Below are positions 2,214-48,317 of a DNA stretch of 64,000 nucleotides, piece after piece. Position numbers and translations under genes: made by a program. Below the pieces are notes generated by a model that was not told the origin of the DNA, did no database searches, and saw only the letters and a program-made list of their open reading frames with translations. Source of the DNA: an uncultured Acidobacteriota bacterium (GTDB taxonomy: Bacteria; Acidobacteriota; UBA6911); assembly GCA_963827655.1 (NCBI GenBank), contig CAWHCF010000023.1, forward strand, positions 32,001 through 96,000, read 5' to 3'. The first letter of the stretch is position 1. Each line of letters begins with the position of its first letter.

Positions 2214-3794
2214 TTACTTCTGAAGAAGGGTCCGGGCATGTGATTCCACTTCCATCGCTTCCTTATTTCGCTTCATTTTGCGAAGGGCGAGAGCGAGTTT
2301 CTGCAGAGAGTCAGCTAATTCCGGGTTCTCAGGTCCAAGGGTTTTTTCCAGGATGGCCAGTGCCCTTCGGTATAGCGATTCAGCTTCAGAATGGCGTTTC
2401 TGCGCGTAGCAAGTTGCCGCCAGCTTCAACAAAGTACGAGCTACCCACGGATGTTCCACGCCTAAGGCTTTTTCCCGGATAGCCAGCGATCGGCGGAGAA
2501 GCAGCTCAGCCTGCGCGTGCCGGCCCTGATCCTGTTGAAGCAGTGCGAGACTCTCCAGGCTGTGGGTCAAGTCGGGATGGTTCGGACCAAGAGCTTTTTC
2601 TCGGATGGCCAGTGCGCGCCGGTGGAGAAGTTCAGAGTTGACGGGCTGCCTTCGCGCCTGCACCAGGTTTGCCAGATTGTTAAGAATACTGGCCACTTCA
2701 GGGTGGTCTGGTCCTAGAGCTTTTTCGCACATGGCCAGGGATCGCCGCAAGAGCCGTTCTGCCTCGGCATAACGGCCTTGAATTCCATAGAGTGTTGCCA
2801 GGTTGTTGAGACCTATTGCCAGCTCTACACCTTCCCCCAATGCCTTTTCTCGAATCTCGGCGGCACGCAAAAAGAGGGGCTCTGCCTCGACATACCTTTT
2901 CTGTTCGTGATAGAGCGCCGCCAGGTTGTTTAGAGCGATGGCGACTTCGGGATGATGCGGCCCGTGGGTCTTCTCGATTATAGCCAGGGCCCGCCGGAAA
3001 AGTGATTCGGACAACACGTATTTTCCGAGAACACCGTAGAGCGTTGCCAGGTTGGTGAGAGTCGTCGCCAAATCGGGGTGCTGCAAGCCCAAAGTCTTTT
3101 CTTGCACCGCAAGAGCCCGGAGGAAGACTTGCTCGGCTTCTTCATACCGACCCTGATTGTGGTAGAGGACCGCCAGATTATTGAGCGTGCTGGCAACCTC
3201 GCGATGTTCCGATCCCAGGGTTTTCTCATTAATGGCCAGCGCTCGTTTGTAGAGCGGTTCCACTTCTTTATAACGGGCCTGGGCAGAGTACACGGCGGCC
3301 AAGCTATTCAGAGTCATCGCCACATCCGTATGTTCCGGACCCAGTGCCTTCTCACGGATGCCCAGGGATCGGCGGTAGTAAGCCTCGGCCTGATCGTACA
3401 AACGCTGATTAAGACAAACGAATGCCAGGTTATCTAGAACCGTGGCCAGGTCGGTATGATTCGTTTCCGGAATCGTGTCCCAAATAGTCAATGCCCTCTG
3501 AAGAAGCCTCAGGGCCTGGGTATACTTCCCCTGATTTCTGTACAGGGCGGCAAGATTGTTCAGACTATTCGCCAGACGAGGATTTCGAACTCCTGACTTT
3601 TCGGCCTCGCCCAGGGCCTCGAGGTAGCTCTTTTCAGCTTCCGCATAGCGGCCCTCCTTGCTGAGTTGATCACCGGCTTTGGTGGCTTTTTCCCAAGGAG
3701 TCTCTTGAGCCGCAATACCCGACCAGGAAGCCAGGGCTAAGGCTGTCACCAGGATCCAAGGGTTCCGAGATTCCTTGCTGCTGTCTTGGGCCAT
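2214..3794 (-). CDS. Exported tetratricopeptide-repeat protein (kinesin-light-chain-like 42-aa TPRs)
   Basis: About 10 repeats of LNNLAxLY..QGRY.EAE.L..RAL.I.EK.LG..HP; signal peptide after MAQD start. Confidence 0.9.
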   Translation of the reverse strand: MAQDSSKESRNPWILVTALALASWSGIAAQETPWEKATKAGDQLSKEGRYAEAEKSYLEALGEAEKSGVRNPRLANSLNNLAALYRNQGKYTQALRLLQRALTIWDTIPETNHTDLATVLDNLAFVCLNQRLYDQAEAYYRRSLGIREKALGPEHTDVAMTLNSLAAVYSAQARYKEVEPLYKRALAINEKTLGSEHREVASTLNNLAVLYHNQGRYEEAEQVFLRALAVQEKTLGLQHPDLATTLTNLATLYGVLGKYVLSESLFRRALAIIEKTHGPHHPEVAIALNNLAALYHEQKRYVEAEPLFLRAAEIREKALGEGVELAIGLNNLATLYGIQGRYAEAERLLRRSLAMCEKALGPDHPEVASILNNLANLVQARRQPVNSELLHRRALAIREKALGPNHPDLTHSLESLALLQQDQGRHAQAELLLRRSLAIREKALGVEHPWVARTLLKLAATCYAQKRHSEAESLYRRALAILEKTLGPENPELADSLQKLALALRKMKRNKEAMEVESHARTLLQK

Positions 3795-4060
3795 CGTGAT
3801 CTCGATCCTCCAAACACGCCTTCTTCTCGGCCCCCTCGAGTTATCGAGCGCGATCACGGCTGATCTGGTAATGCGAATCGCGACGAAACATTTGGGAGCG
3901 ATTCACGGACTCCCACGCGAGCCCTCTGCGCCGGCAACCCCAATCGACCTCAGCGCGGGTCCAGGTTTTTTAAGATTCTGGCTAACTCCGGATGTTCTGC
4001 TCTCCGGGGTTAAACCCCACGCATTTCTCAGTTTCACCCCAGTGAGTTAGCCGTTGTTCC

Positions 4061-6263: not shown

Positions 6264-9019
<2,756 letters not shown>

Positions 9020-9298: not shown

Positions 9299-10459
9299 TC
9301 ATTTGGATCGCTCAGCCATCTGGTGCAAGCGCTCGATCAGCCACGGGAGATTGCAGGAGGCCCGCTTCGCGTCGCCGGTAGGCTTGCTGGTTCTGGTGAC
9401 AAGAAATCTGCGCGTCGCGTCGATCATGTCGGCGGCTCTGTTCAGTGAGTCCATGTCCTCTGGACGGGGCGAGGACGTGAGTTTAACCTCGATGGCCCAG
9501 CGTTCGCGGCCGACCTCCAGGACCAGGTCCAGCTCGTAGTGATCGCTGGTCCGGAAGTAGTAGGGACGGACGCTCTCCCCGTGCGCGGACATTTCCCCGA
9601 TGATTTGTTCGATTACGAAGCCTTCCCAACTCGCCCCAACCCATGGCTGCGCGAGAAGCGACCGCTCGTCGCGGACGTTCAGCAGGGCATGTAGTAGCCC
9701 GGTGTCGCGCCAGTACACCCGGGGACTCTTGACAAGCCGCTTGCGGATATTCGCCTGATAAGCGGGCACGCGCCGGATTAAGAACGCTCCCTCGAGGTAG
9801 TCCAGGTAACTGTTCACCGTGTGGTAGGACAGCCCGAGGCTCTGGCCGACCTGAGATGCGTTCCAGACCTGCCCGTGCAGCGCCGCGAGCATCCGCATCA
9901 AGCGGTCCGTCGCCTGGGGTTTGCTCGGCAGGCCCCACGTAGGCAGGTCGCGTTGCCCCAACAGCGCCAGATAGTCCAGTTGCCACTGAGGATAGCGCGC
10001 GGGTTCCAGCACACCGCCATCGGGGTATCCGCCACAGAGCCACAGACGTCCGCGCGACGTTTTCGTGGCCAACTCGTTCCACAGGAGCGGCGTCAGTTCC
10101 ACCAGCGACAGGCGTCCCGCGAGCGACTCGGATACGCGAACCATCAACGAGGGTGAAACGGAACCGAGGAGAAGAAACCTCCTCGTTCGCTTGCGTTCCC
10201 GGTCGATCGCGCCGCGCAGGCGCGGGAACACCTCGGGCCAAGACTGGGCTTCGTCGAGAATGACCAGGTCGTTGGCAGCCGTCAGGTCGTCCATTTCAGA
10301 TCCGCCCGCAGCCGCTCGATTCCTGTTCCAGGTCGAAGTAGTCGCCCCCAAGAGAGAGAGCCAGGGTCGTCTTCCCGCACTGGCGGGGGCCAATAATGCA
10401 ACGGCCGGATATGAAGCCGAGCGCGTGAGTAACGCTGGCTGGACTTGTCGCGCAAGCAT
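9299..10459 (-). CDS. AAA_14 ATPase with DUF4143 and C-terminal PD-(D/E)xK-like motif
   Basis: Walker A GPRQCGKTT lies in an alternate frame (compensating indels near 10330-10395); LDEAQ, GGYP, KSPRVYWRDTGL, ELDLVL..AIEVK. Confidence 0.85.
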   Translation of the reverse strand: MLARQVQPALLTRSASYPAVALLAPASAGRRPWLSLLGATTSTWNRNRAAAGGSEMDDLTAANDLVILDEAQSWPEVFPRLRGAIDRERKRTRRFLLLGSVSPSLMVRVSESLAGRLSLVELTPLLWNELATKTSRGRLWLCGGYPDGGVLEPARYPQWQLDYLALLGQRDLPTWGLPSKPQATDRLMRMLAALHGQVWNASQVGQSLGLSYHTVNSYLDYLEGAFLIRRVPAYQANIRKRLVKSPRVYWRDTGLLHALLNVRDERSLLAQPWVGASWEGFVIEQIIGEMSAHGESVRPYYFRTSDHYELDLVLEVGRERWAIEVKLTSSPRPEDMDSLNRAADMIDATRRFLVTRTSKPTGDAKRASCNLPWLIERLHQMAERSK

Positions 10460-17879: not shown

Positions 17880-18364
17880 TTACTCGCCGGCCAACTCGAG
17901 CACTTCAGCACGGACCGCGTCGGATATGAAGAACCCTAATTCATTCTGAGCCGATCCAGCAGCGGCCCCAGAGGTCCAACAAGGTTCTGTTGCTTCGCCC
18001 GCAGGAGGATCCCTAGCACACCGAGTGGCAGCAGACCGCGCTGGCGAGCGAGGGCCCGGCCCGCGGCTTCGTCAATAAGCACCGCATCGGCGTGAACTTC
18101 GACGGCCAGGGCCAGAGCTTCAGCCTCACCCGGGCCGATAGTCAGGAGTAGATTCTCCACGACAGCTCGGTCCCGCGGTGCAACGATCCGGACAAAAACC
18201 AAGCCCCGTAAAAAGATTGGTGAGAACCTCGAACGGGGTTGCTCCAACTCTGCGGCCACAGCTGGCGGGACCAGCACTTCACCGAAGAGGGCGTGGAGCA
18301 GTTCCACGCACCCCAGGTGCGCGAGTGCTCTGATTAGAGAAGTGTCGCTGACGACGATGGACAA
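17880..18364 (-). CDS. DUF3368 PIN-like protein (C-terminal frameshift)
   Basis: VVSDTSLI, GPGEAEALALA, LIDE, GVLGILLRAK; tail GFFISDAVRAEVLELAGE in the adjacent frame. Confidence 0.85.
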
Positions 18365-37891: not shown

Positions 37892-40800
37892 ATGAAACTC
37901 ACCAGCGTGCTCCTGGCATGCGCCTGCATTCTTCTCTATTCCATTGCGCTGCCGGCCCAGAGTGCCACGGGACAGATCAGCGGGACGGTCTTCGATCCCA
38001 GCGGCGCCCTGATTCCGGGTGCTTCGATTAAAGTGACCAGTGTCGGAACGGGCGTGACGCGCGAGGCCGCGGCCGGCGTCAATGGCACCTTCGTGGTTCC
38101 CTCCCTCCCGGCCGGCATGTACATCGTGCAGGTCGAAATGCCGGGCTTCCGGACCTACGTCGTGCAGAACGTCGAGGTCACGGTCGGCGCCGACTACTCG
38201 CTGCGCGTCGTCATGGAGACGGGATCGGTCGACTCCACCATCACGGTGACCGCAAGCGCGGTGCAGGTCCAGACCTCCGAGGCCTCCGTGTCGAACCTGG
38301 TCGACGAGAAGACCCTGGTGACGCTGCCGCTGAACCGGCGCAACCCGCTCCACCTGCTGAGCCTGATCCCGGGCGTCGTCGGCCACAGCGCCGAGGCGAC
38401 CACCGCGACCGGCACCGTGACCCACTACGTCAACGGAGACCGCGGGCGCGGCGTCCTGACCACGCTCGACGGCATCGATATCTCGGACCCGATCATCCCG
38501 CGCGGCGAGCTGACCAACGCGCCGGTGAACCCCGACATGGTCCAGGAGTTTCGCGTCACGACGGCGCTGGCGCGCGCCGAATACGGGCGCAACAGCGGCG
38601 CCCAGATCGAAATGATCACCAAGAGCGGGACCAACGAGCTGCACGGCAACGCCTACGAGTTTTTGCGCAACACGGCGCTGGACGCCAACAGCTTCTTCAA
38701 CAACCACCTCCCCGACCCGATCACGAGATCCGCGCCGATCCCGCGCGAGCTCCTGCAGCAGAACCAGTTTGGCGCCGCCGTGGGAGGTCCGATCATCAAG
38801 AACAAGATGTTCTACTTCTTCAACTACGAGGGGATAAGGCGGAAGCAGGCCTTTCTGACCTCGAGCACGGTCTTCACTCCTGCGGCGCGCCAGGGAATCT
38901 TCCGTTTCGTGCGCGGAAACATAACGCTATCGGACGGCCGCGTCTTCAACCGGCTCAACCCGGCCCTGGTCGATCCGGGAAGCGGCTCGGTCCGCGGCGA
39001 CGTCCCCCTTTGCGGCGGCTCGGTCGCGACCGATTGCCTCGACACCTACAACATCGTCGCCAGCGACCCGCGCCGGTTGGGCCTCGATCCCGTCATGCAG
39101 CAACTGATCAATCTTTATCCGGCGCCGAACGACTACACCACCGGCGACGGCCTCAACACGGCCTTCTTCCGCTGGAACTCGCCCAGCGAGGCGCCGGCGG
39201 ACGTCTACGCCGGGAAAGTGGATTACATCTTCAACTCGCGCTACGAGATGTTCGCGCGTTACAACCTGGCCTGGCGCAACGATCTCATCGGGGACTTCAT
39301 CAACGACGCGCTCGGCCGCACGCCGCGAACCGTGCCGGCGCGCTCGCGGCTCTCGCGCAACCAGGGGGCCGCGGCCGGTTTCAAGATGATCTGGTCGCCG
39401 AGCCTGCTCAACGATCTGCGCTTCGGCTTCACGCGCACTTCGCTGCAGTTTGTCGACACCACGCATCCAATCCGATCCGGAGCCGATGACTTCGGCAAGG
39501 TCCCGGAACTGCGCACGACGGCGATGAACACGCCGTTCGTCTACTGGGGAGGCACGTTCCGCTACCCCGAGCACTTCCAGCTGCGCGACGGCATCAGCTG
39601 GCAGCGGGGACCGCACGCGCTCCGCTTCGGCGGCGACCTCCGGTTCTATCGCTTCAACAACCGGCGTGACGTCGGTTCGAACCCGCAAGGAAGCGGCATC
39701 AGCGTGTTTCCCAGCGTCCGGTTCACCGAAGGCGTGGTGCCGTTTACCGGCACGACGCCGCTCAACGTTGTACCCAACGCGACCGACCGCACCACGCTGG
39801 AACGCATGTACAACGAGCTCCTCGGGATTGCGGCCCAGGTGGACCAGATCATGTACAGCGACGGAAGCCAGTACGCTCCCGGCAACGGTCTGATCATGTA
39901 CCAGCGCCAGCGCGAATACTCCCTCTACTTCCAGGACGACTGGCGCCTGCATCGACGCTTCACGCTGAACCTGGGGCTGCGCTACGAGCTGTTCGGCGTT
40001 CCATACGATGATGGCGGGCTGCAGGTCGTCCCCGACAAGCCGCTCCAGCAGGGTCCCGTCACCTTTCTGAAGGCCGGGCCGGGAACGGGCCGGCAGTGGT
40101 ACGGCTCCGACACCAATGACCTGGCGCCGGCCCTCGGCTTTGCCTGGGACTTCATGGGCGACGGACGCACGGCGCTGCGCGGAGGCTACCGCATCAACTA
40201 CAACCGGCTGGTCGCGTGGGCCCTGAACGTCGTCGAGCAGCGCCAGCCTGCGATCGGACTCGACCCGCAGATCCGCGGCGAGTGCCGAGATCCGAATACC
40301 GGCGCTTTCGGCGCCTGCGGCGGCGCCTTCTCAGACCCGCTGCGGCTGCCCGAGATCGCGCAACACCCGCGCGTGGTAGTCAACGACGGACTCCCGAGCC
40401 TCCGGTCGCCGGTGCCGAACCAGATCAACGCGACCCCGCCGGACACGCGCCGCGAGTCTCCCTTCTTCTTCGCCGACGACTTCCGCTCGGCCAAGGTGCA
40501 CCAGTTCTCGCTCTCGCTACAGCGCGAGCTGGCGGCCAATACGGTGCTCGAAGTCGGCTACATCGGAAGCCGCGGGCTCGGCCTGTTCCGTTTCCTGAAC
40601 GTGGACGACATTGAAATCCGTTCCAATGGCTTCCTCCAGGAGTTCGTCAACGCCAGGAAAAACCTGGAAGTGTGCCGCGCCAACCCGGCCGCCTGCCGGA
40701 CCGCCGCCGGGAGCACGTCTGCCACCTTCGCGAGCTTCGCGGACCTCGGCCTGCCGGGTCAGGTTCCGGTGCCGATCTTCACCTCCCTCTTCTCGGCGAC

Positions 40801-41761
40801 CGGCTCGCGCACCGCTGCCGGGTTCACCGATGCCACCAGCCTCACGAACCTCGACCAGAACAACATTGGCACCCTGGCCGACCGGATGGACAAGAGCCAG
40901 GGCGGGAGCCGCGGCCCCCTGGCTGCCTTCGCCCGCGACAACTTCTTCCGGCCCAACCCCCAGTTCGACGTGGCGGGGCTCGGCGCGTCGGTCTCGCGTT
41001 CCTGGTACAACTCGCTCCAGCTGCAGATCCGGAGCAACTACCGCAACCTTCTGCAATACGCGTTCAACTACACCTTCCAGAAGTCGATCGACGACACCTC
41101 GAACGAGACCGTCGCCGCCGGCACGGCTTTCGACTTTCCCTACGACTCGAAGAACCTCCGGCTGAACCGCGCTCGCTCGGACTTCGATGTCAGCCAGGTC
41201 TTCCGCGGCTATGCCATTTACGACCTGCCCGTCGGCCGGGGCCGCCGCTTCGGCTCCTCGCTCCATCCGGTGTTCGATCAGATCGTGGGCGGCTGGCAGG
41301 TCAATACGATCATCGATATCTCGACGGGCTTTCCGTTCACGGTCAGCTCCGGCAGCCAGACTAACGGCTACTTCACCGCGTCACCGGCAGACTGCGGCGC
41401 CGGCGGTCGCGGGACGGCGAACGTTGACAAGAACGACGCGCGCGGCGGGGTCTGGCTTTTGGGTGCGGACGATTCGAGCAACCTCAGCATTCCGGCGGCC
41501 GGCATGCTCGGCAGCTGCGGGCGCAACACCTTCACCGGCGCGGGCTATACCCAGTTCGATTTCGGCATCTTCAAGAGCTTCCGGATGAGCGAGCGCTCGA
41601 GGCTCGATTTCCGGGCCGAGATGTTCAATGCCTTCAACCAGGCGAATTTCAACAATCCGACCGAAGCCAACCGGAGCATCCAGAGCGCCACGTTCGGCAA
41701 GGTCACGAGCCTGCGGGCGCCGAACCGGGTGATGCAGTTCGCATTGAAGCTGATTTTTTGA
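37892..41761 (+). CDS. TonB-dependent receptor with carboxypeptidase-regulatory-like N-domain
   Basis: Signal peptide, GTVFDPSG, KSGTNELHG, FQDDWR..NLGLRYE, C-terminal RVMQFALKLIF. Confidence 0.92.
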   Translation: MKLTSVLLACACILLYSIALPAQSATGQISGTVFDPSGALIPGASIKVTSVGTGVTREAAAGVNGTFVVPSLPAGMYIVQVEMPGFRTYVVQNVEVTVGADYSLRVVMETGSVDSTITVTASAVQVQTSEASVSNLVDEKTLVTLPLNRRNPLHLLSLIPGVVGHSAEATTATGTVTHYVNGDRGRGVLTTLDGIDISDPIIPRGELTNAPVNPDMVQEFRVTTALARAEYGRNSGAQIEMITKSGTNELHGNAYEFLRNTALDANSFFNNHLPDPITRSAPIPRELLQQNQFGAAVGGPIIKNKMFYFFNYEGIRRKQAFLTSSTVFTPAARQGIFRFVRGNITLSDGRVFNRLNPALVDPGSGSVRGDVPLCGGSVATDCLDTYNIVASDPRRLGLDPVMQQLINLYPAPNDYTTGDGLNTAFFRWNSPSEAPADVYAGKVDYIFNSRYEMFARYNLAWRNDLIGDFINDALGRTPRTVPARSRLSRNQGAAAGFKMIWSPSLLNDLRFGFTRTSLQFVDTTHPIRSGADDFGKVPELRTTAMNTPFVYWGGTFRYPEHFQLRDGISWQRGPHALRFGGDLRFYRFNNRRDVGSNPQGSGISVFPSVRFTEGVVPFTGTTPLNVVPNATDRTTLERMYNELLGIAAQVDQIMYSDGSQYAPGNGLIMYQRQREYSLYFQDDWRLHRRFTLNLGLRYELFGVPYDDGGLQVVPDKPLQQGPVTFLKAGPGTGRQWYGSDTNDLAPALGFAWDFMGDGRTALRGGYRINYNRLVAWALNVVEQRQPAIGLDPQIRGECRDPNTGAFGACGGAFSDPLRLPEIAQHPRVVVNDGLPSLRSPVPNQINATPPDTRRESPFFFADDFRSAKVHQFSLSLQRELAANTVLEVGYIGSRGLGLFRFLNVDDIEIRSNGFLQEFVNARKNLEVCRANPAACRTAAGSTSATFASFADLGLPGQVPVPIFTSLFSATGSRTAAGFTDATSLTNLDQNNIGTLADRMDKSQGGSRGPLAAFARDNFFRPNPQFDVAGLGASVSRSWYNSLQLQIRSNYRNLLQYAFNYTFQKSIDDTSNETVAAGTAFDFPYDSKNLRLNRARSDFDVSQVFRGYAIYDLPVGRGRRFGSSLHPVFDQIVGGWQVNTIIDISTGFPFTVSSGSQTNGYFTASPADCGAGGRGTANVDKNDARGGVWLLGADDSSNLSIPAAGMLGSCGRNTFTGAGYTQFDFGIFKSFRMSERSRLDFRAEMFNAFNQANFNNPTEANRSIQSATFGKVTSLRAPNRVMQFALKLIF

Positions 41762-41838: not shown

Positions 41839-44800
41839 CTAGAACGTGCCCATGACTGACAACTTCCTGATGGTCTCCAGCACGGATCCGCGATAATAAG
41901 GATTCGCGTCATAGTACGCGCGATTGAGCGCGATCAGGACCGGGCGGAGGTTTTCTGGGTTGTTCTTCCAGTCCAGCATCCCGAGGCTGGACAAAAGGCC
42001 CCAATTTTCTTTACGCACGGCGCGACAGAGGGCGGCGACGATGTCGCTGCGGGCCAGGCGGAGTTCACCCAAGCAGGAGACGGCAGCACCATGGTCGAAT
42101 CCAATCGTGTCGTTCGTCTTGCTCAGCAATTTCGCGATAAGCTCTTCACTAACCGCACCCAGGCGTATCAGACCGACGGCTGCCGAGCGCCACACATCAT
42201 GGTCGTAATGATCCATCGCTCTTCTGAGCGCGTGGATCACCGGCTCTGTCGCGCGTCCAAGCCGCGTCAGAGCCACGGCTGCCGCCCGTTTCACGAAAAT
42301 GTCAGCATCGTCCAGTGCACTAACAAGTACGGCGATCGTCTCATCGCTCGGATCTGAAAGGTGCGCGAGACCGAATGCAGCAGCCGTCTTTATGTATCTG
42401 CTGCCATCATCCTGCCGAGAGAATGACGTTCTCTCCAACATTTGGAGGTAGAAATCCAGATCCTTGTTCGGCGCCGGAGATTTATGGTCGATAGCCCGAA
42501 GCAACGCTCTCAGCGCTCCGGGGTTTTCGGAAGCCAGCATTCCCAAGCTGCGCGCCGCGGATTTGCGCGCGCTCAACTTTGTCATGTCGCGCCGCATAAC
42601 GATCTCGTCACCATGGCTCTGCGCGATAAGAACACGTTCCAGTTGGCCTACTACCCGGTCCTGCGATTGATGAAGCTCTCCCAGCGCCTCCGCCGCGGCG
42701 GCGACAAGACCATCGTCTTTGCTCCCCAACGACTGAACCAGTCCGGTCACGATATCGTCGCGAACACGGCCGAGCTTTGCCACGCTCCTTGCCGCCTCGA
42801 CTCGAGCGCGAGGATTCTTATGCTGCAGGGCGCTTACGAGTCCGGCCAGAACCTCGTCTGTAGCGCGCCCGATTTCCCCGAGACGGGCCGCAGCATCCTC
42901 GGCGTCAAGATAGCCGTCCAATTGCCGCAGTAATGCCGCCAGGACCTGATCATTCGTTCGACCGAGCTCCACGAGCACCTTTGCGGAAGCTCTTTGAGCA
43001 GGTAGCGTCTGCGATCCGTGTGCACGTGTCAGGATCGAGATCACTGGCTCTGTCACCTGTCCGAGACGTGCCAGCCCGACCGCCGCTGACATCCGGACTT
43101 CCCAGTCGGAATCCTCAAGCGCTCGCATAAGAAACGGCAGCGTCGCAGCGTTGCAGTGGGCGGCAAGGCTGTCGACCGACGAGCGCCGAATGTTCACGTC
43201 GGGGTCGCTGAGCGAGTCCGTCAGGATCCTGGTCACGCGCGGGTCTCGGTAATCTGCATACGACAGGGCGGTCAAGGCCGCATCTCTGGCCCGTCCTGAC
43301 GCGCTTTCACCCGCGCGAACAATCGCCGCGAGGGCTTCGGCGTTCGACACGGACAGTCTGCCCAGGAACCCAATGGCAAATCGCCGTGCGTCGAAATCAT
43401 TGCTGTCGAAAGCGCGGCTCAGAAGCGATGTCACGGGTTGCGGGAGAGCGCTACGTAAGACGTTAAGAGTGGCTAAAGCCAGCGGACTGAGGCGTCCCTC
43501 GGAGTCGGCTGCTCTCGCACGATCATCCAAAAGCTCAAAGATGAGATCCGACGCCTCGGATTGGAGCCGCGCTTGGACTCGGGACATGTTGGCGTGCGGC
43601 ACACTTTCGGCCCAGGCTGCCGCGACGAGTTCGAATTCGCGGCGCAGCATGCCCGCTATGCGGCGTTCGAGCTGAACACCGGCGAGGTATCGCCCCGGTT
43701 GAATGCGCGGGTTGAGCTTTGGATTGAACCGGAGGATCGAGAGGGGACGGGAGCACAGGCCCAGAATGCGCGATACCAGCTTGACCGTCTTCTCCGGGTC
43801 GTCGCCTGCGGATATGAGGTGCGCGATTGCCAGAACATGGACCTCATGCCACCACTCCTGGTGCAAGTGTTCGAGCACGGCATCAACGCACTTGGCCTCG
43901 GGCAGGCGCGCAATGTATAACGCGGCGAGATACTCTTGCAGCGTCTGATGTGGAAATCCGTACTGGTCGGGACCAAACCGCTGGAGAACTCCCGACCGCA
44001 CCGCCAGGCTGTCGAGCAGCGCTCCCGCCTCGACGCCGCCCATCGCCGAGGCCTCCTGGACTATCATGAGCAGATCCGAGCGGCCGGCCCGCGACTGTCC
44101 GCGCGAGTGAACGGCGTAGGCTACGGCAGCAAGGATGCGGGTCGGGCGCTCTTCGTCAATCGCCGCTTGATGTTCCCGTCCTATCTCCCGAACGCTCTGC
44201 CACTTCATCAGCATCCGGCAGCACCGGTCGTAGAGCTGCACTTTCAGCTCCGGCAGATATCCCTCGTTGCGCCAGATGAGAAACAGGATGGTTGCCAGCA
44301 GCGGTGTCCCGGAAAGGTCCGCCAGGCGGGGGTTCGACTGGATTCTCGAAAACAGAGCCTGAGCCTCGGTCTTGGACTGTCCGGCAGTCAGGTTCGCATC
44401 TCGAGAGTACCAGCGTTCGAAGTATGCCTGAACATTTTCCGAAGTGAACGGCTTCACCTGACAGACTCGGAATCGAGTTCGAAGCACGGTCTCGGTTTCC
44501 GCCAGCGGACCCGGCCGGGTCGTGAGGATCACCCGATGGTTGGGATAAACGCGCGAGAGTTCCACCAGCGACTCGCTGATTCGAAGGCGTGCTTGCGCGC
44601 TCGCGACCTCATCGAGACCGTCGAATAGCAGCAGGCAGTCGCGCGAGGCCAGCGCGTCCGCAAAGAACGTCTGCGGTATGCCCGCGAAAGCCTGCTGCCG
44701 CGCCAGCATCTCCGGAAGAACCGCAGGCCAGGATGGCGAAACCCGGCCGCTCGAGATCTCGTCGGGTAAGCGGCCGAGTTCAATGAGAATCGGGATGCGA

Positions 44801-45543
44801 CCCCCTCGCTCCACGGAGGTCACGGCCAGCCAGCGGAGCAGGGCGCTCTTACCTGCCCCGGGCGTTCCGGAAAGAACCACATTCCCTTGCAATATCGCGT
44901 CGAGCGAGACCCGCTCCGAGACGGTAACAACCATCTCTGTGTCCTGCCTGCCGCGGGACTTATCTTTAGGCGCCGGCTGGCGAACTAACTTGAGCTCGTC
45001 AATCGAAAGAGGCACGTAAACGTCGAGCAGCGATACGCCACCGGTGAAGACATCGCTGCGCTCGAATGCGGCGAAGCTGACAGTGTTGTAAGCAAGCGCA
45101 AGGCGGTTCACGTACTCGCGTTCGGCTGCCCTCGGGTGCGCACTCCCGAGTGTTTCGATAATTGAAACCCTTAGCCGTTCTGCCAGAGTCTCCAATTCAC
45201 CGGGACCGCCGTAGGTCAGCGACCGATGGTGCCTGACGTCAAACGGGAGCGAATCGGCGGAGTCCACGAGCAGGATCGCCGGAACCTGGGTCCGGCCGAG
45301 CTCGAAGAACACATTCGGATTGTTTCCGGTGAGAAGTGCGATGACGAGATCCGCCCGCGCGAGTTCGTCCTCGACATGATCCATGATCACGCCGGCACGG
45401 CTGATACGGGCCGGATGGACAAGTTCGATGCCCGCGCCCCTTCCAGCCGCACGGATCGCGTCCTGGACGGCCGCAAACACTGCCGCGTCCTCGTTCCCTG
45501 CGCGTTCCGGCGTGAACGGCGTGATCAGGAACGCACGGCTCAT
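41839..45543 (-). CDS. NLR-like protein: NDT-like N-domain, NACHT NTPase, HEAT repeats
   Basis: ADLVIALLTGNNPNVFFELG..PFDV; Walker A GTPGAGKS; Walker B LLFDGLDEV; TPLL; FPHQTLQEYLAA; many HEAT repeats. Confidence 0.85.
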   Translation of the reverse strand: MSRAFLITPFTPERAGNEDAAVFAAVQDAIRAAGRGAGIELVHPARISRAGVIMDHVEDELARADLVIALLTGNNPNVFFELGRTQVPAILLVDSADSLPFDVRHHRSLTYGGPGELETLAERLRVSIIETLGSAHPRAAEREYVNRLALAYNTVSFAAFERSDVFTGGVSLLDVYVPLSIDELKLVRQPAPKDKSRGRQDTEMVVTVSERVSLDAILQGNVVLSGTPGAGKSALLRWLAVTSVERGGRIPILIELGRLPDEISSGRVSPSWPAVLPEMLARQQAFAGIPQTFFADALASRDCLLLFDGLDEVASAQARLRISESLVELSRVYPNHRVILTTRPGPLAETETVLRTRFRVCQVKPFTSENVQAYFERWYSRDANLTAGQSKTEAQALFSRIQSNPRLADLSGTPLLATILFLIWRNEGYLPELKVQLYDRCCRMLMKWQSVREIGREHQAAIDEERPTRILAAVAYAVHSRGQSRAGRSDLLMIVQEASAMGGVEAGALLDSLAVRSGVLQRFGPDQYGFPHQTLQEYLAALYIARLPEAKCVDAVLEHLHQEWWHEVHVLAIAHLISAGDDPEKTVKLVSRILGLCSRPLSILRFNPKLNPRIQPGRYLAGVQLERRIAGMLRREFELVAAAWAESVPHANMSRVQARLQSEASDLIFELLDDRARAADSEGRLSPLALATLNVLRSALPQPVTSLLSRAFDSNDFDARRFAIGFLGRLSVSNAEALAAIVRAGESASGRARDAALTALSYADYRDPRVTRILTDSLSDPDVNIRRSSVDSLAAHCNAATLPFLMRALEDSDWEVRMSAAVGLARLGQVTEPVISILTRAHGSQTLPAQRASAKVLVELGRTNDQVLAALLRQLDGYLDAEDAAARLGEIGRATDEVLAGLVSALQHKNPRARVEAARSVAKLGRVRDDIVTGLVQSLGSKDDGLVAAAAEALGELHQSQDRVVGQLERVLIAQSHGDEIVMRRDMTKLSARKSAARSLGMLASENPGALRALLRAIDHKSPAPNKDLDFYLQMLERTSFSRQDDGSRYIKTAAAFGLAHLSDPSDETIAVLVSALDDADIFVKRAAAVALTRLGRATEPVIHALRRAMDHYDHDVWRSAAVGLIRLGAVSEELIAKLLSKTNDTIGFDHGAAVSCLGELRLARSDIVAALCRAVRKENWGLLSSLGMLDWKNNPENLRPVLIALNRAYYDANPYYRGSVLETIRKLSVMGTF

Positions 45544-45633
45544 CTCTGTCACTATACCTTTGGTGTCACCCTTGAAAATTCAATTCTGTTAACCGACTGG
45601 CGGCGGCGACGCGTCAGACGATTTTCCGAATTT

Positions 45634-48172
45634 TCAAGGCCTGACACCATCCTTACGCTTGACATAGATCGCGCGCGCTTCCCGGTACTGAGCCAGGACG
45701 TGCTCTTTCTCCCAGTCCGAACGCCAACCGGGATGGGCCTTGGTTAGTTCCGTCAGCTTGTCAATCCAGCGAATGAAGTAGTCGGCGGATGCCGCCGAAC
45801 GGATCGGAGCTTCGCCGACGTACACGAAGATGGGGTTGGTCGTGGCCATGGGACGACTGTCTTCGACGGGATGGCGCGCCTTCTCCGAAATCGCCTGAAG
45901 CGTGAACCATCCCGACCGGTGACAGAAACTTCCTTGTCGAATTTTGCCTGACGGCGTTCGCCGTCAAGCGGGATCTTCTCGAGTACCGACCCGTTGCGCA
46001 CCACCTCGAGGCGATCCACGGGCGCGATCGAGTTCAGCGTTCCGCGCAAGCGCACGGTTCCACCTCCGGCCGGCAGGCGGATGTCGTCCCCCGGCATGGC
46101 CTCGTTCACGGTGAACTCCAGGAGCGGGCCGTTGGTCACGAAACCGCGCCCCTTCAGCAGCGCGTTCTTGAAGTTCTCCCAGCTCAGGTTCCCGGGTCCG
46201 AGGAAGAAGTAGCCCCGCGTGGCTCCCACCAGCCGCGTTCGGTGCAGGTTGGAGATCGAATCCTCGCCGCCGGTGGCGGGAAGCTTGAATCCGTTATTGA
46301 GCACATGGTGCCACACAATCAGCCCGCCCGCGCCTGCCGTCGACCAGAGCTCAAGATAGCTCATTGACTCGAGGGCGGCGTCCACCGGAAGACCTTTCGC
46401 CACGCCCAGATCGGATTCGAGCGGATCGCGCTCGCCATAAGGGTGCACGTAGGCTCCGATGCCGCCCTGCTGCTTGGCCAACCGGAAGATATCCGGTGTT
46501 CGAAGGATAGAGGCTCTCGATCGCCGTCCCCTCGTATCCCGTGGTAAAGGGCGAGATCAGATGCTCCTTCAGATTGAAGAGCGAGATGTGGCCGTAGAAA
46601 GGAGGACGATACTCCTGGCCTGTGTGCATGATCTGCTCGCGCGTTGATGCGGGATGGGTCATGCGGCCGGCTGCGTAGTGCTGATAATCGAGAATGCGGT
46701 TATCCTTGTTAGCAATCTGGTGTCCGATAATGTCGGCATCCTCGGCGGCATTCATGAACACCAGGTTCTCCGGCGTGTTGTGAAGATTTCCGCCGTAGTT
46801 CATGTGAACGTGGTTGCTGCCTGAGTACCATCCCTTCGCCTTCAAGTTCACCATGCGGCGCAGCGTCAGGGTGAGCGAGGCGGTTTGCCCGGCAGTAATA
46901 TTGGCGGTGGCCTTGGCAGGCTCGTATTCGAAGCCTTTGACCGCCTCGACCGAATACGAGCCGGGCGGGACTTCAGTGACAAATTCTCCTCGAGTGTGAA
47001 ACAAAGGCTGGTTGAGGGAGGAGAGGCGCTCGTACGAATCGGGCGGGGTGTAAGACTTGCCATCAGCGGCACGCTGGTAGATGCGCGCCGGCGTCGGCTT
47101 GCCGGTTTCACCGTCGACAACACGCACCTCGACCTTGCCCATCGGGCGAGCCCAGCGCTTGGCGGAGATCCGGACCAGCCGCTGCGTGCCTCCCCACGCC
47201 TTGAGCAGCTTCAACTGCGGCAATCCCTCTTCATTGGATACGTAGGCAATCCACTCGCCGTCGGGCGACCAGCGAGGGTGGAAGCTGTCGTACTCGCCGA
47301 AGGTCAGCTTGTAGGGCTCCCCTCCGGCGGCCGGCAAGACAAAGAGGTTGCTGTATTGATGCCCGAGGTGAGAGCTGTAGACAATCCGCTTGCCATCACG
47401 CGACCAGTGAGGACGAGTCCGGTAAAGGGTCTCCTCCTTGTGAATCATCTGGGCGCGGGAAGAGTTCATCACGTCCGCAACCACCGGGGCGCGCCAGATC
47501 GCGCCCGATCCGAGCGGGATCCCGCGGTTACTGACAAATATGATTTCACGGCCGTCCGGCGACCAGGTGGGCGAGATATGCAGATCGTGATCGCCGAAAT
47601 AGAGCCGGTCTCTGCCAAAGCGATGATCGGAAGTCAGGGCCGAGACGCTTCCCTTCTTGCCGTTCTTGAGCTCCATGACGTAGATGTTGTAGTAGCCGTT
47701 CGGCTCCGTGGAGACGTAGGCCAGCCGGGTGCCATCGGGTGACCAGGCCGGATCGAGATTGAGGTGGTTCCCGGAGGTGAGAGTCTCGGACTGCCCGGTT
47801 TCGATATTCAATATCTTCAGATTTATCGTCCGTGCCGTCATCCGCCGTGTAAACGAGCCATTTGCCGTCGGGCGACCATTCGGGCGAGGAGAGATACTCT
47901 TTCGAGTAAACCATCTCCTGCGCGACGGTTTCGCCCAATCCCATCTTCCAGAGCGAACCATCCATCGCGAAAGCGATCCACTTCCCGTCGGGTGACCAGG
48001 ACGGCCACCAGGGTGTGCTGCTGCCCGAAGGGGGGAGATAGAAGTTCAGCATGTAGTTCCCGCCGGTCCTGGCAACCGGGTGGGGCTGGCTTCCGAACTG
48101 CGCACGGGCCGGCTCAAAGACCATACAGCTGAGACTGAGATACAGGAGCGGAACGACCATGTTGCCTTTCAT
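45634..48172 (-). CDS. PD40/TolB beta-propeller plus CehA/McbA-family PHP metallohydrolase (frameshifted)
   Basis: WSPDG repeats; GWYSGSNHVHMNYGG; AYVHP; TGGED; TNGP; ATTNPI. Confidence 0.85.
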
Positions 48173-48317
48173 AGACTCTCCTCCTCCCTCCACCATCGCC
48201 GCGCTTCAGGCTGGTCGAGTAGGTAGTGCTCGCGTGCTACACTTTCCTCGAATATACGGAGGCTATCATGACGGCGTCGCTCGACCATCGAGAATTTCTT
48301 CAGCAGGCAGCTATCGC

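What the first reader, a model, noticed from the sequence alone, without database searches (positions are those of the whole stretch)
41839..45556. Stand-alone bacterial NLR with nucleoside-deoxyribosyltransferase-like effector and HEAT-repeat sensor
Seen: N-terminal about 130 aa with AFLITPF..ADLVIALLTGNNPNVFFELG..LPFDV, a full NACHT module and about 500 aa of HEAT repeats; frame intact; inserted between unrelated genes with its own promoter. Known: bacterial NACHT proteins confer anti-phage defence, and NDT-fold domains act as nucleotide/NAD-degrading effectors in retron systems (Eco1/Ec86, Sen2 RcaT). Inference: a single-protein immune receptor that oligomerises on sensing a phage protein and depletes nucleotides or makes a signal; this exact domain combination may be uncharacterised.
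Basis: partly seen in the sequence, partly recalled or inferred. Interest (0 to 1): 0.7.

Follow-up and report, generated by a model that had tools for sequence, protein, structure and literature searches.

The report
NLR-like receptor with NDT-type effector
This is one intact 1234-residue bacterial gene built like an animal or plant NLR immune receptor, with a sugar-base-bond-cutting enzyme domain at the front, a NACHT switch in the middle and HEAT repeats at the end; the design is already catalogued but this enzyme version has never been tested.

Summary
A single intact minus-strand ORF (ATG 45543, stop 41839-41841; 1234 aa) has three parts. Residues 1-135 are a small alpha/beta domain. Residues about 216-700 are a NACHT NOD module. 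Residues about 705-1165 hold about 13 HEAT-like repeats.

The N-domain gets no direct Pfam hit. It links to nucleoside 2-deoxyribosyltransferase/DNPH1/MilB enzymes through its homologues, a profile search of PDB and a confident AF2 model. Its Glu81 aligns with the DNPH1 glutamate and is kept in 160 of 165 relatives. By fold alone, TIR domains score almost as well.

The closest N-domains sit on other STAND NTPases. The closest NACHT-HEAT relatives carry TIR_2, DUF4062, EAD1 or trypsin in the same slot. This fits a swappable effector.

Best reading, inferred: a stand-alone NLR-type conflict or anti-phage receptor. Ligand-driven oligomerisation would switch on an N-glycosidase that destroys NAD+ or a nucleotide.

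Against: no defence island nearby, no orthologue in 40 relatives, no expression data, and the claimed promoter is at chance level.

DrHyd/NDT-type effectors on bacterial NACHT proteins, and HEAT sensors, are already listed by Kibby et al. This is a new member of a known kind and is experimentally untested.

The parts
41839..45543 (-). Whole gene: 1234 codons plus stop (41839-41841); start ATG 45543
   Evidence: The start is set by homologues that align from residue 1-3. The public gene call P0003 is 1181 aa, 96% of the query. By arithmetic, not by alignment, it would begin near Met54 and cut the N-domain.
45139..45543 (-). N-terminal NDT/DrHyd-type (TIR-related) alpha/beta domain, residues 1-135; presumed effector
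   Evidence: AF2 pLDDT 95.3, pTM 0.89, five strands with helices between. VIA: DNPH1 Z 14.4 (rmsd 2.5, 118 aligned), MilB 13.2, NDT 12.8-13.2, TIRs 12.1-12.7. A profile of 40 relatives hits DNPH1/Rcl in PDB at E 0.0025. PF05014 is found in 19 of 84 and in 18 of 48 homologues scanned. There is no direct Pfam hit.
45301..45303 (-). Codon of Glu81 (in NVFFELG), presumed catalytic nucleophile
   Evidence: It is aligned with the Glu of YELG in DNPH1/Rcl. It is invariant in 40 of 40 rows of A1 and is E in 160 of 165 domain instances. That this DNPH1 Glu is the nucleophile is recalled knowledge.
44896..45123 (-). Linker and pre-NBD region, residues 141-216, with a beta-hairpin at about 181-212
   Evidence: AF2 model of residues 141-700 has strands at model residues 41-50 and 63-72.
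44401..44880 (-). NACHT NTPase domain (Pfam envelope), residues 222-381
   Evidence: PF05729 E 1.3e-13, 51.6 bits against cut-off 26.7.
44845..44868 (-). Walker A GTPGAGKS, residues 226-233 (Lys232)
   Evidence: G226, G229 and G231 are invariant and K232 is kept in at least 90% of the 25 rows of A2.
44608..44637 (-). Walker B CLLLFDGLDE, residues 303-312, carrying the NACHT signature D[GAS]hDE
   Evidence: D308, L310, D311 and E312 are invariant in A2. The signature is as defined in the Kibby preprint passage.
43444..44400 (-). Helical/winged-helix part of the NOD module, residues 382-700 (includes invariant Arg343 in TTRP)
   Evidence: AF2 of residues 141-700 gives pLDDT 81.1, pTM 0.82. Foldseek best matches are NLRC4 4kxf_B (E 3.9e-12, TMq 0.59), then NLRP3, NOD2 and NAIP5.
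42049..43431 (-). About 13 HEAT-like repeats, residues about 705-1165; presumed sensor
   Evidence: HEAT_2 E 5.7e-32 in four stretches and HEAT E 1.3e-11. PADLOC HEAT-ARM_XIII E 4.5e-15. Repeat anchors are spaced 31-33 aa apart (and reading the sequence).
41842..42048 (-). C-terminal tail, residues 1166-1234, no family assigned
   Evidence: No Pfam match lies there. Not studied further.
45551..45578 (-). Sigma-70-like site TTTTCA-16-TATAGT upstream of the start; not evidence of a promoter
   Evidence: One site was found against a mean of 1.0 in 50 shuffles.

Best explanation
The gene encodes a stand-alone bacterial NLR-related (NACHT-clade STAND) receptor of a conflict or anti-phage type.

Shown:
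- It has a tripartite build: an NDT/DrHyd-type domain, a NACHT NOD module and a HEAT solenoid.
- The NTPase motifs are intact.
- The glutamate is conserved at the catalytic position of the NDT/DNPH1 family.
- The N-terminal slot is exchangeable among relatives.

Inferred:
- In the resting state the HEAT solenoid and NOD module hold the protein as an inactive monomer.
- Binding of an invader-derived (or guarded host) protein to the HEAT repeats allows nucleotide-dependent oligomerisation of the NACHT module.
- This brings the N-terminal domains together. Enzymes of this fold work as dimers or higher assemblies, so crowding completes their active sites.
- The domain then cuts an N-glycosidic bond. 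My split is about one half NAD+ (as in TIR, DUF4062 and retron Eco1 RcaT), about one third a nucleotide such as a (d)NMP or (d)NTP (as in DNPH1/MilB-type enzymes), and the rest something else.
- This starves the cell and the invader (abortive infection).
For: Architecture and motifs:
- NACHT, HEAT, Walker A and B and the D[GAS]hDE signature are present.
- The NOD model's best structural matches are NLRC4, NLRP3, NOD2 and NAIP5.

N-domain identity:
- Exhaustive phmmer finds 6308 representative proteins at E<=1e-3 and 147 at E<=1e-10.
- PF05014 matches the homologous stretch in 19 of 84 of the best hits scanned, 6 above the gathering score.
- PF05014 also matches in 18 of 48 metagenome relatives, 3 at or above the cut-off.
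- The family profile hits DNPH1/Rcl at E 0.0025-0.013 with the Glu columns aligned.
- The best viral hit is a 'CMP/hydroxymethyl CMP hydrolase'.

A conserved polar set that looks catalytic, out of 165 domain instances: N75 159, N77 160, E81 160, D102 156, R107 152, Y111 152.

Modularity:
- The N-domain is 41-65% identical to N-termini of other NACHT, AAA_16/TPR and NB-ARC proteins.
- On a domain tree of 142 sequences the query lies in a clade of 34 (support 0.909). That clade holds all 17 rows I had labelled STAND/TPR (labels are mine, midpoint root).
- Of the 13 nearest NACHT-HEAT relatives, P0004 carries TIR_2, P0007 DUF4062, P0009 and P0015 EAD1, and P0013 Trypsin_2 in the same slot.

Patchy occurrence, as for accessory immune genes:
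- No full-length match was found in 40 relatives searched.
- N-domain matches occur in 28 of 400 other genomes of the phylum, none in an ORF over 684 aa.

The same genome holds three more members of the N-domain family. They are fused to TIR_2, TPR-S and a SLOG domain.

Literature, passages read:
- DrHyd is listed as a NAD+-targeting effector of bacterial NACHT proteins.
- The TIR-DrHyd-SLOG clade and DrHyd NADase effectors are described in PMC9503650.
- DUF4062, a TIR-like NADase next to NACHT, is described.
- RcaT NDT-like effectors are described.
Against: - No function was measured here. Every mechanistic step after 'domain present' is inference.
- There is no recognisable defence island. 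0 of the 26 ORFs between 20072 and 63188 hit PADLOC at E<=1e-5. The nearest hits are more than 23 kb away.
- PADLOC has no whole-system model for the protein. Only a HEAT-ARM model and a partial 'Effector TIR' match (E 2.9e-6) appear, and no Avs or bNACHT-type model appears at E<=1.
- The N-domain misses every Pfam model even at E 10.
- By fold it cannot be told from TIR domains. The Z gap is about 1-2, and scores fall smoothly to response regulators at Z about 10.
- The position aligned with DNPH1's Asp80 is Val57. The nearby Asp55 is D or E in only 125 of 165. The classical Tyr/Asp/Glu triad is therefore not demonstrably complete.
- Most family members are short two-domain proteins without an NTPase. 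The family is not specific to NLRs.
- Base composition gives no sign of recent transfer: GC 0.614 and GC3 0.694, inside the range of the 12 other window genes measured.
Confidence: 0.6

Rival explanations
1. The receptor design is the same, but the N-domain is a signal generator rather than a killer. On activation it would turn NAD+ into a cyclic or variant ADP-ribose (or another nucleotide-derived messenger), and that messenger would switch on a separate effector encoded elsewhere.
For: PMC9503650 passages say some DrHyd and TIR members make cADPR-type signals. The same genome has a family member fused to a ThsB-like TIR_2 domain and one fused to a SLOG domain, both typical of signalling systems.
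Against: No candidate receiver or effector gene lies next to the gene. In single-chain STAND proteins the N-terminal slot is usually the executioner, and the relatives here carry trypsin or TIR_2 there.
Confidence: 0.12
2. It is not an immune gene. It would be a housekeeping or regulatory STAND NTPase whose HEAT repeats bind a cellular partner and whose NDT-like domain edits or senses a nucleotide metabolite.
For: The neighbours are ordinary: a TonB-type receptor, hydrolases and a MacB-type permease. There is no defence island. Composition is like that of the host genome.
Against: No full-length match was found in 40 relatives searched, and no NLR-sized match in 400 genomes of the phylum. The N-terminal slot is swapped with TIR_2, trypsin and EAD1 in relatives. 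Family members occur on viral contigs, where 205 of 220 pattern stretches encode a relative.
Confidence: 0.13
3. The N-domain is a non-catalytic adaptor. It would be a TIR-like oligomerisation or nucleotide-binding module that recruits another protein.
For: TIR domains score within about 1-2 Z of the best NDT-family matches. The classical mid-helix Asp is not in place.
Against: The polar residues are almost invariant: N75, N77, E81, D102, R107 and Y111 are each kept in 152-160 of 165 instances. That fits an active site better than an interface. The Glu sits on the DNPH1 glutamate.
Confidence: 0.07

Closest known systems
Bacterial NACHT (bNACHT) NLR-related anti-phage proteins (Kibby et al.; preprint 10.1101/2022.07.19.500537, passages read)
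   Same: The layout is the same: N-terminal effector, central NACHT with the D[GAS]hDE signature, and a C-terminal repeat sensor. The preprint lists DrHyd among NAD+-targeting N-terminal effectors and HEAT among 'antigen receptor-type' repeats.
   Different: The legend of their tested set names LRR, HEAT, REase, TIR, TM, NNH1 and NCH1 but no DrHyd. No DrHyd/NDT-type bNACHT appears to have been tested there. I could not see their tables or the Cell version. This protein comes from a different, unnamed soil-type genome. The nearest NACHT-HEAT relatives found are only 30-39% identical.
DUF4062 TIR-like NADases next to NACHT (human TEP1, NWD1/2, NPHP3; bacterial Swarozyc; bioRxiv 10.64898/2026.05.01.722283, passages read)
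   Same: A small TIR/NDT-related domain with a conserved catalytic Glu sits directly N-terminal of a NACHT module. The proposed activation is by NACHT oligomerisation and the action is NAD+ depletion. A 33%-identical NACHT-HEAT relative (P0007) carries DUF4062 in this very slot.
   Different: The N-domain here is not DUF4062. It has no Pfam hit, and hhalign of the family profile against P0007 gives probability 0.1. By sequence it links to PF05014/DNPH1 instead.
Retron type II effectors (RcaT of Sen2, Eco1, Eco9) with an NDT-like domain
   Same: They belong to the same superfamily. The catalytic Glu follows the third strand. [quoted passage not shown]
   Different: RcaT has a DNA-binding domain and is held in check by a reverse transcriptase-msDNA complex. 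Here there is no RT nearby, no PADLOC retron NDT effector match at E<=1, and control would come from a fused NACHT-HEAT module.
DNPH1/Rcl, MilB and nucleoside 2-deoxyribosyltransferases (PF05014 and relatives)
   Same: These are the best structural and profile matches: DNPH1 Z 14.4, MilB 13.2 and NDT 13.2, with profile E 0.0025. The ELG glutamate lies on the DNPH1 glutamate.
   Different: They are stand-alone metabolic enzymes of about 150 aa. Sequence identity is 11-22%. There is no direct Pfam hit. DNPH1's Asp80 column is Val here. The family has its own invariant set, N-x-N-V-x-x-E, P-F-D, R and Y.
TIR-domain NLRs and TIR effectors (plant TNLs, SARM1, ThsB, Cap12/TIR-STING)
   Same: The logic is the same: proximity-activated N-glycosidase on an oligomerising scaffold. 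The fold is related (Z 11-12.7). There is a PADLOC 'Effector TIR' partial match at E 2.9e-6.
   Different: No TIR Pfam model matches. The profile search of PDB gives Cap12 only E 0.65, against 0.0025 for DNPH1.

Membership tests
NACHT clade of STAND NTPases (NLR-related) | Match to the NACHT family model above its curated cut-off | tested here: met
   PF05729 scores 51.6 bits against 26.7, residues 222-381.
NACHT clade of STAND NTPases (NLR-related) | Walker A GxxxxGK[ST], and Walker B with the D[GAS]hDE signature (as defined in the Kibby preprint passage) | tested here: met
   GTPGAGKS at 226-233 and LLLFDGLDE at 304-312. These columns are invariant in the 25-row alignment A2.
NACHT clade of STAND NTPases (NLR-related) | NOD-module fold (NBD plus helical and winged-helix domains) like solved NLRs | tested here: met
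   AF2 pLDDT 81.1. The top Foldseek matches are NLRC4, NLRP3, NOD2 and NAIP5, with E down to 3.9e-12 and TMq up to 0.59.
bNACHT anti-phage proteins | Protection against phage that depends on NTP binding | not testable with these tools
   This needs expression and a phage challenge.
bNACHT anti-phage proteins | Location in or near defence islands (a supportive feature, not strictly defining) | tested here: not met
   0 of 26 ORFs between 20072 and 63188 hit PADLOC at E<=1e-5. The contexts of homologues were not scanned.
NDT/DrHyd superfamily (PF05014, DNPH1, MilB) | Direct match to a family model | tested here: not met
   0 Pfam families at E<=10 for residues 1-187. Single-sequence phmmer against PDB gives Rcl only at E 1.3.
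NDT/DrHyd superfamily (PF05014, DNPH1, MilB) | Homology through intermediates or a profile | tested here: met
   For example, P0091 matches the query at E 3.3e-19 and PF05014 at 30.3 bits against 28.8. The A1 profile hits DNPH1/Rcl at E 0.0025.
NDT/DrHyd superfamily (PF05014, DNPH1, MilB) | Fold | tested here: met
   DNPH1 Z 14.4 (rmsd 2.5, 118 aligned), MilB Z 13.2 (134 aligned), NDT 6evs Z 13.2 (115 aligned). TIR domains reach Z 12.1-12.7, so the fold alone does not separate the two.
NDT/DrHyd superfamily (PF05014, DNPH1, MilB) | Catalytic glutamate on the helix after strand 3 | tested here: met
   E81 aligns with the YELG Glu of DNPH1/Rcl. It is E in 160 of 165 relatives.
NDT/DrHyd superfamily (PF05014, DNPH1, MilB) | Second acidic residue (DNPH1 Asp80; RcaT-Sen2 E85) and the aromatic residue after strand 1 (RcaT-Sen2 F28) | tested here: inconclusive
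   The Asp80 column is Val57. Asp55, two residues before, is D or E in 125 of 165. Phe10 after strand 1 is F in 124 of 165. The equivalence of Phe10 and Asp55 to the triad is inferred, not aligned.
NDT/DrHyd superfamily (PF05014, DNPH1, MilB) | Obligate dimer or oligomer with shared active sites | not tested
Retron type II RcaT effectors | NDT-like domain plus DNA-binding domain, partnered with a reverse transcriptase and msDNA | tested here: not met
   No RT family is found among the neighbours. No retron NDT effector model appears in PADLOC at E<=1. The domain is fused to NACHT-HEAT instead.
TIR / DUF4062 families | Match to TIR, TIR_2, TIR-like or DUF4062 models | tested here: inconclusive
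   No Pfam hit. hhalign of A1 against a DUF4062 protein and against a TIR_2 protein finds nothing at their N-termini (single sequences, so low power). PADLOC 'Effector TIR' PDLC00733 matches residues 53-118 at E 2.9e-6.
Avs (antiviral STAND) families of PADLOC | Match to an Avs model | tested here: not met
   One search lists only HEAT-ARM_XIII, Effector TIR and a weak PprDinG at E<=1. The library dates from 2023.

The most novel reading that the evidence does not exclude
The N-domain represents a large, unnamed clade of the NDT/TIR superfamily. It has 6308 representative clusters at E<=1e-3, and no Pfam model reaches this member. Its near-invariant set (N-x-N-V-x-x-E, P-F-D, R, Y) differs from the Tyr/Asp/Glu triad of NDT/DNPH1 and from TIR.

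It could carry out a chemistry not yet seen in NLR immunity. One possibility is cutting the base off a nucleotide other than NAD+ (a DNPH1/MilB-like (d)NMP or NTP nucleosidase). It would be switched on by NACHT-driven pairing of the domains.

The same module, fused to HEAT, TPR, TPR-S, pentapeptide repeats, tail-sheath domains, TIR_2 and SLOG, would then be a general plug-in effector of prokaryotic conflict systems.
Probability: 0.25. Interest if true: 0.6.

Novelty: new member of a known kind. Interest (0 to 1): 0.38.

Why it matters
NLR-type receptors with NAD+-cutting TIR domains are a shared theme of plant, animal and bacterial immunity. The sister superfamily (NDT/DrHyd) has been predicted as an NLR effector, but in the sources I could read it has not been tested.

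This gene is a clean, intact, single-chain example. Its catalytic candidate (Glu81) and its switch residue (Lys232) are clear, so the prediction can be tested directly.

Three results would add something:
- If the substrate is NAD+, that adds a third related fold (after TIR and DUF4062) to NACHT-coupled NADases.
- If the substrate is a nucleotide, that would be a new way for an NLR to starve a virus.
- The family also lacks a Pfam model that detects this member, and the public gene call cuts the domain off. Annotation pipelines will therefore miss such effectors.

Tried and rejected
1. Homodimer prediction of the N-domain (complex prediction, A1 in two copies). The job was never accepted because the queue was full. 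There is no result of any kind.

2. Synteny test for an insertion. The 982-aa neighbour has 56-60% identical matches in G005, G006, G014 and G016. In the 7-14 kb fetched beside those four matches, tblastn at E<=1e-8 found none of the other 11 window proteins or pieces. Nothing can be said about an insertion.

3. Promoter. One sigma-70-like site against 1.0 expected, so it is not evidence. The five terminator-like sites compare with 3.5 expected, and none lies just past the stop.

4. Composition. GC and GC3 lie within the range of the 12 other window genes measured. There is no sign of transfer.

5. Expression. No RNA holder is listed among the 22 runs.

6. Genome-contig scan with the single N-domain. 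It gave only 8 distant loci at 27-47% identity. I did not analyse them further.

7. Defence context of homologues. The defence context of homologues is therefore untested.

8. hhalign of A1 against a DUF4062 protein and against a TIR_2 protein found no relation. These are single sequences, so the test is weak.

9. Retron RcaT structures do not appear among the 50 rows shown in either VIA list. This does not exclude similarity.

10. Earlier findings of this scan. Nothing near the window or by sequence. A word search gave one unrelated NACHT-HEAT/KAP pair in another genome, which I did not use.

11. The Cell version of Kibby et al. and its tables are not held, and preprint supplements are closed. 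Their Table S1 may list this very architecture.

12. Literature search for 'deoxyribosyltransferase' + 'anti-phage' + 'STAND NTPase' found 0 papers. The wider search gave nothing on an NDT-NLR experiment among the 12 listed.

13. There are no tRNA genes in the window, so there is no obvious integration site.

Full report
**The gene**

The interval holds one long open frame on the minus strand. The stop is at 41839-41841. In-frame starts are GTG 45552 and ATG 45543. Relatives of the N-terminus align from residue 1-3 of the ATG form, so I take ATG 45543 as the start, giving 1234 aa (P0001).

The public protein collection holds this gene as an 1181-aa call covering 96% of the query (P0003). By arithmetic, not by alignment, that call would start near Met54 and lose half of the N-domain.

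The gene converges on a TonB-type outer-membrane receptor gene (37892-41761, +). It follows, on the same strand and after about 90 bases, a broken PD40/metallohydrolase-like gene.

Contigs of two soil metagenome runs from different studies cover pieces of the gene with 0-6 differences per piece and no indel. The frame is therefore not an assembly accident. One of these runs may be the sample the window came from.

**Middle and C-terminal parts**

- Pfam places NACHT at residues 222-381: 51.6 bits against a cut-off of 26.7.
- Walker A is GTPGAGKS (226-233). Walker B is LLLFDGLDE (304-312), which carries the D[GAS]hDE signature that the Kibby preprint gives as diagnostic for NACHT.
- These columns, and Arg343 in TTRP, are invariant in an alignment with 24 relatives.
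- An AF2 model of residues 141-700 (pLDDT 81.1, pTM 0.82) finds animal NLRs first: NLRC4 4kxf_B at E 3.9e-12 and TMq 0.59, then NLRP3, NOD2 and NAIP5.
- HEAT_2 matches in four stretches at E 5.7e-32. PADLOC's HEAT-ARM_XIII matches at E 4.5e-15.
- Repeat anchors 31-33 residues apart give about 13 repeats between about 705 and 1165 (and reading the sequence).

**The N-terminal domain**

Residues 1-187 hit no Pfam model even at E 10. Alone against PDB sequences they give only Rcl at E 1.3. The link to a known family is indirect, but several lines agree.

- An exhaustive phmmer search of 1.84 billion representatives finds 6308 proteins at E<=1e-3, 147 at E<=1e-10 and 20 at E<=1e-30.
- I scanned 84 of the best 150. 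Of these, 19 match PF05014 (nucleoside 2-deoxyribosyltransferase) on the homologous stretch, 6 of them above the gathering score.
- Of 48 metagenome relatives scanned, 18 match PF05014, 3 at or above the cut-off. Two of the 50 prepared were dropped for an internal stop.
- A profile of 40 family members hits DNPH1/Rcl chains in PDB at E 0.0025-0.013. The family's Y/F-E-L-G lies on DNPH1's Y-E-L-G. Cap12 (a TIR) gets only E 0.65.
- The AF2 model of residues 1-140 is confident: pLDDT 95.3, pTM 0.89.
- Foldseek ranks MilB CMP N-glycosidase first (E 1.3e-5, TMq 0.73), then DNPH1 and NDTs.
- VIA-align gives DNPH1 Z 14.4 (rmsd 2.5, 118 aligned), MilB 13.2 and NDT 12.8-13.2.
- TIR domains follow at Z 12.1-12.7, and scores fall smoothly to response regulators near Z 10. 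The fold alone does not separate NDT from TIR. The sequence evidence tips it to NDT/DrHyd.
- The ESM Atlas neighbours carry PF05014 in 30-35% of members and PF10137 in 27%.
- The best viral structural match is annotated 'CMP/hydroxymethyl CMP hydrolase'.

**Conserved residues of the N-domain**

Counts are over 165 domain instances from the best hits:

| Residue | Conserved in |
|---|---|
| Glu81 | 160 |
| Asn75 | 159 |
| Asn77 | 160 |
| Val78 | 160 |
| Asp102 | 156 |
| Arg107 | 152 |
| Tyr111 | 152 |
| Pro9 | 147 |

- Glu81 lies on the helix after the third strand. I recall that this position holds the nucleophile in NDT/DNPH1 and the catalytic Glu in TIR.
- The column of DNPH1's Asp80 is Val57 here. 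Asp55 is acidic in 125 of 165, and Phe10 after strand 1 is F in 124 of 165. The classical triad is therefore not demonstrably complete.
- A preprint gives F28/E85/E107 as the triad for RcaT-Sen2.
- The family has its own invariant set.

**Modularity**

- The closest N-domains (41-65% identity) head other STAND proteins with NACHT, AAA_16/TPR or NB-ARC.
- P0041 (668 aa) also has a very similar NACHT. It is probably an orthologue, possibly incomplete.
- I built a FastTree of 142 domain sequences. The labels come from my own Pfam reading, the tree is rooted at the midpoint, and it uses 140 columns. The query sits in a clade of 34 (support 0.909). That clade contains all 17 rows labelled STAND/TPR, all 3 tail-sheath fusions and 3 of the 4 other long proteins.
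- Outside that clade the family is mostly short two-domain proteins. Their partners include HEAT_2, TPR, TPR-S, pentapeptide repeats and NUDIX, and PP2C and SIR2_2/HepT.
- Conversely, 5 of the 13 nearest NACHT-HEAT relatives (30-39% identity) carry a recognised domain in the N-terminal slot: TIR_2 (P0004), DUF4062 (P0007), EAD1 (P0009, P0015) and Trypsin_2 (P0013). The other 8 have none.

This two-way shuffling is what an exchangeable effector slot looks like.

**Distribution and context**

- None of 40 relatives searched has a full-length match. The best is a NACHT-only match at 30% identity.
- N-domain matches at E<=1e-5 occur in 28 of 400 other genomes of the phylum, none in an ORF over 684 aa.
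- The window's own genome has three more family members. They are fused to TIR_2 (also a ThsB-like PADLOC hit, E 9.9e-23), to TPR-S and to a SLOG domain.
- The family occurs on viral contigs: 205 of 220 pattern stretches encode a relative, all at or below 42% identity among the 80 kept. It also matches two PHROGs of unknown function.
- Against a defence reading, no PADLOC hit at E<=1e-5 lies among the 26 ORFs from 20072 to 63188.
- There is no tRNA in the window.
- Composition is ordinary.
- The one promoter-like site is at chance level.

**What is known**

Passages of the Kibby et al. preprint list DrHyd (deoxyribohydrolase) with TIR, SIR2 and PNPase as NAD+-targeting N-terminal effectors of bacterial NACHT proteins. 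They list HEAT with LRR and TPR as repeat sensors. The legend of the tested proteins names no DrHyd.

Kaur et al. 2020 and 2021 (passages) list DRHyd among effectors fused to STAND-type modules. PMC9503650 (passages) describes the TIR-DrHyd-SLOG clade. It says conflict-system DrHyd domains act as NADases or cyclases, while the superfamily as a whole handles a wider range of nucleotides.

A 2026 preprint shows that DUF4062, a TIR-like NADase, sits next to NACHT in TEP1 and forms the bacterial Swarozyc system (passages). Another describes retron type II RcaT NDT-like effectors, their dimer and tetramer states, and Eco1's NAD+ hydrolysis (passages).

A search for deoxyribosyltransferase + anti-phage + STAND NTPase found no paper. 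I could not see the Cell version or any supplementary table.

**Verdict**

The most likely mechanism is inferred. The HEAT solenoid binds an invader-derived or guarded protein. The NACHT module then oligomerises. The crowded NDT-type domains become active and cut the N-glycosidic bond of NAD+ or a nucleotide, which aborts the infection.

I put about 0.6 on this overall. Within it, NAD+ is the likelier substrate and a nucleotide is the more novel alternative.

It is a new, untested member of a catalogued class (DrHyd-NACHT). Its N-domain clade lacks a family model that detects this member.

Noticed in passing
window 45634-48205, minus strand: The gene just upstream reads as one long gene with a signal peptide, PD40 repeats and a metallohydrolase-like part. 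It is broken over four frame segments (47546-48205, 46351-48045, 45753-46556, 45634-45963). Soil-metagenome contigs differ from the window by single-base indels at 45917/45918, 46493 and 47833, each inside the overlap of two successive frame segments. Related strains may therefore keep the frame open. The window has either a real pseudogene or three local assembly errors. The contigs there are only 93-97% alike, so they may come from other strains.
   Followed up: partly
window 45382-45543 (codons 1-53 of the gene): The public protein collection holds this gene as an 1181-aa product covering 96% of the query (P0003). It would therefore begin near Met54. That call removes strand 1 and helix 1 of the N-domain, so automatic annotation would miss the effector.
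   Followed up: partly
L002 (G000:C48), L003 (G000:C21), L004 (G000:C6): The same genome has three more members of the N-domain family. One is fused to TIR_2 (ThsB-like in PADLOC, E 9.9e-23). One is fused to a TPR-S sensor (E 1e-21). One follows a SLOG cluster-4 domain.
   Followed up: partly
proteins P0044, P0048, P0089 (metagenome representatives): The N-domain (about 50-57% identical to the query's) is fused to phage tail-sheath domains (Phage_sheath_1 and Phage_sheath_1C) in three proteins of 610-640 aa. This could be an enzyme riding on a contractile sheath. On the domain tree they fall in the same clade as the STAND fusions.
   Followed up: no
L129-L208 (viral contigs); PHROGs 3634 and 10872: Relatives of the N-domain are common on IMG/VR contigs: 205 of 220 pattern stretches encode one. 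They also match two phage protein families of unknown function (E 6.2e-15 and 3.8e-11). A review passage states that viruses carry only the cyclase (ARC) versions of DrHyd (PMC9503650). I did not check whether these contigs are prophage cargo or host flanks.
   Followed up: no
window 2217-3857, 6481-8292, 9302-10459, 17939-18364: The only PADLOC matches in the window at E<=1e-5 lie more than 23 kb from the gene. They are a TPR protein, a Ser/Thr-kinase-like protein (PD-T4-6/mad6-type models, E 6.8e-66), a PDC-S01 candidate (E 1.4e-71) and a PDC-S70 candidate (E 4e-37).
   Followed up: no
window 45168: One short contig of run X4 (depth 3.3) lacks one base inside the N-domain coding region. It may be an error or a broken allele in a related strain.
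   Followed up: no
window 45551-45578: The single promoter-like site ends 8 bases before ATG 45543. If it were real it would give a nearly leaderless mRNA. It is at chance level.
   Followed up: no
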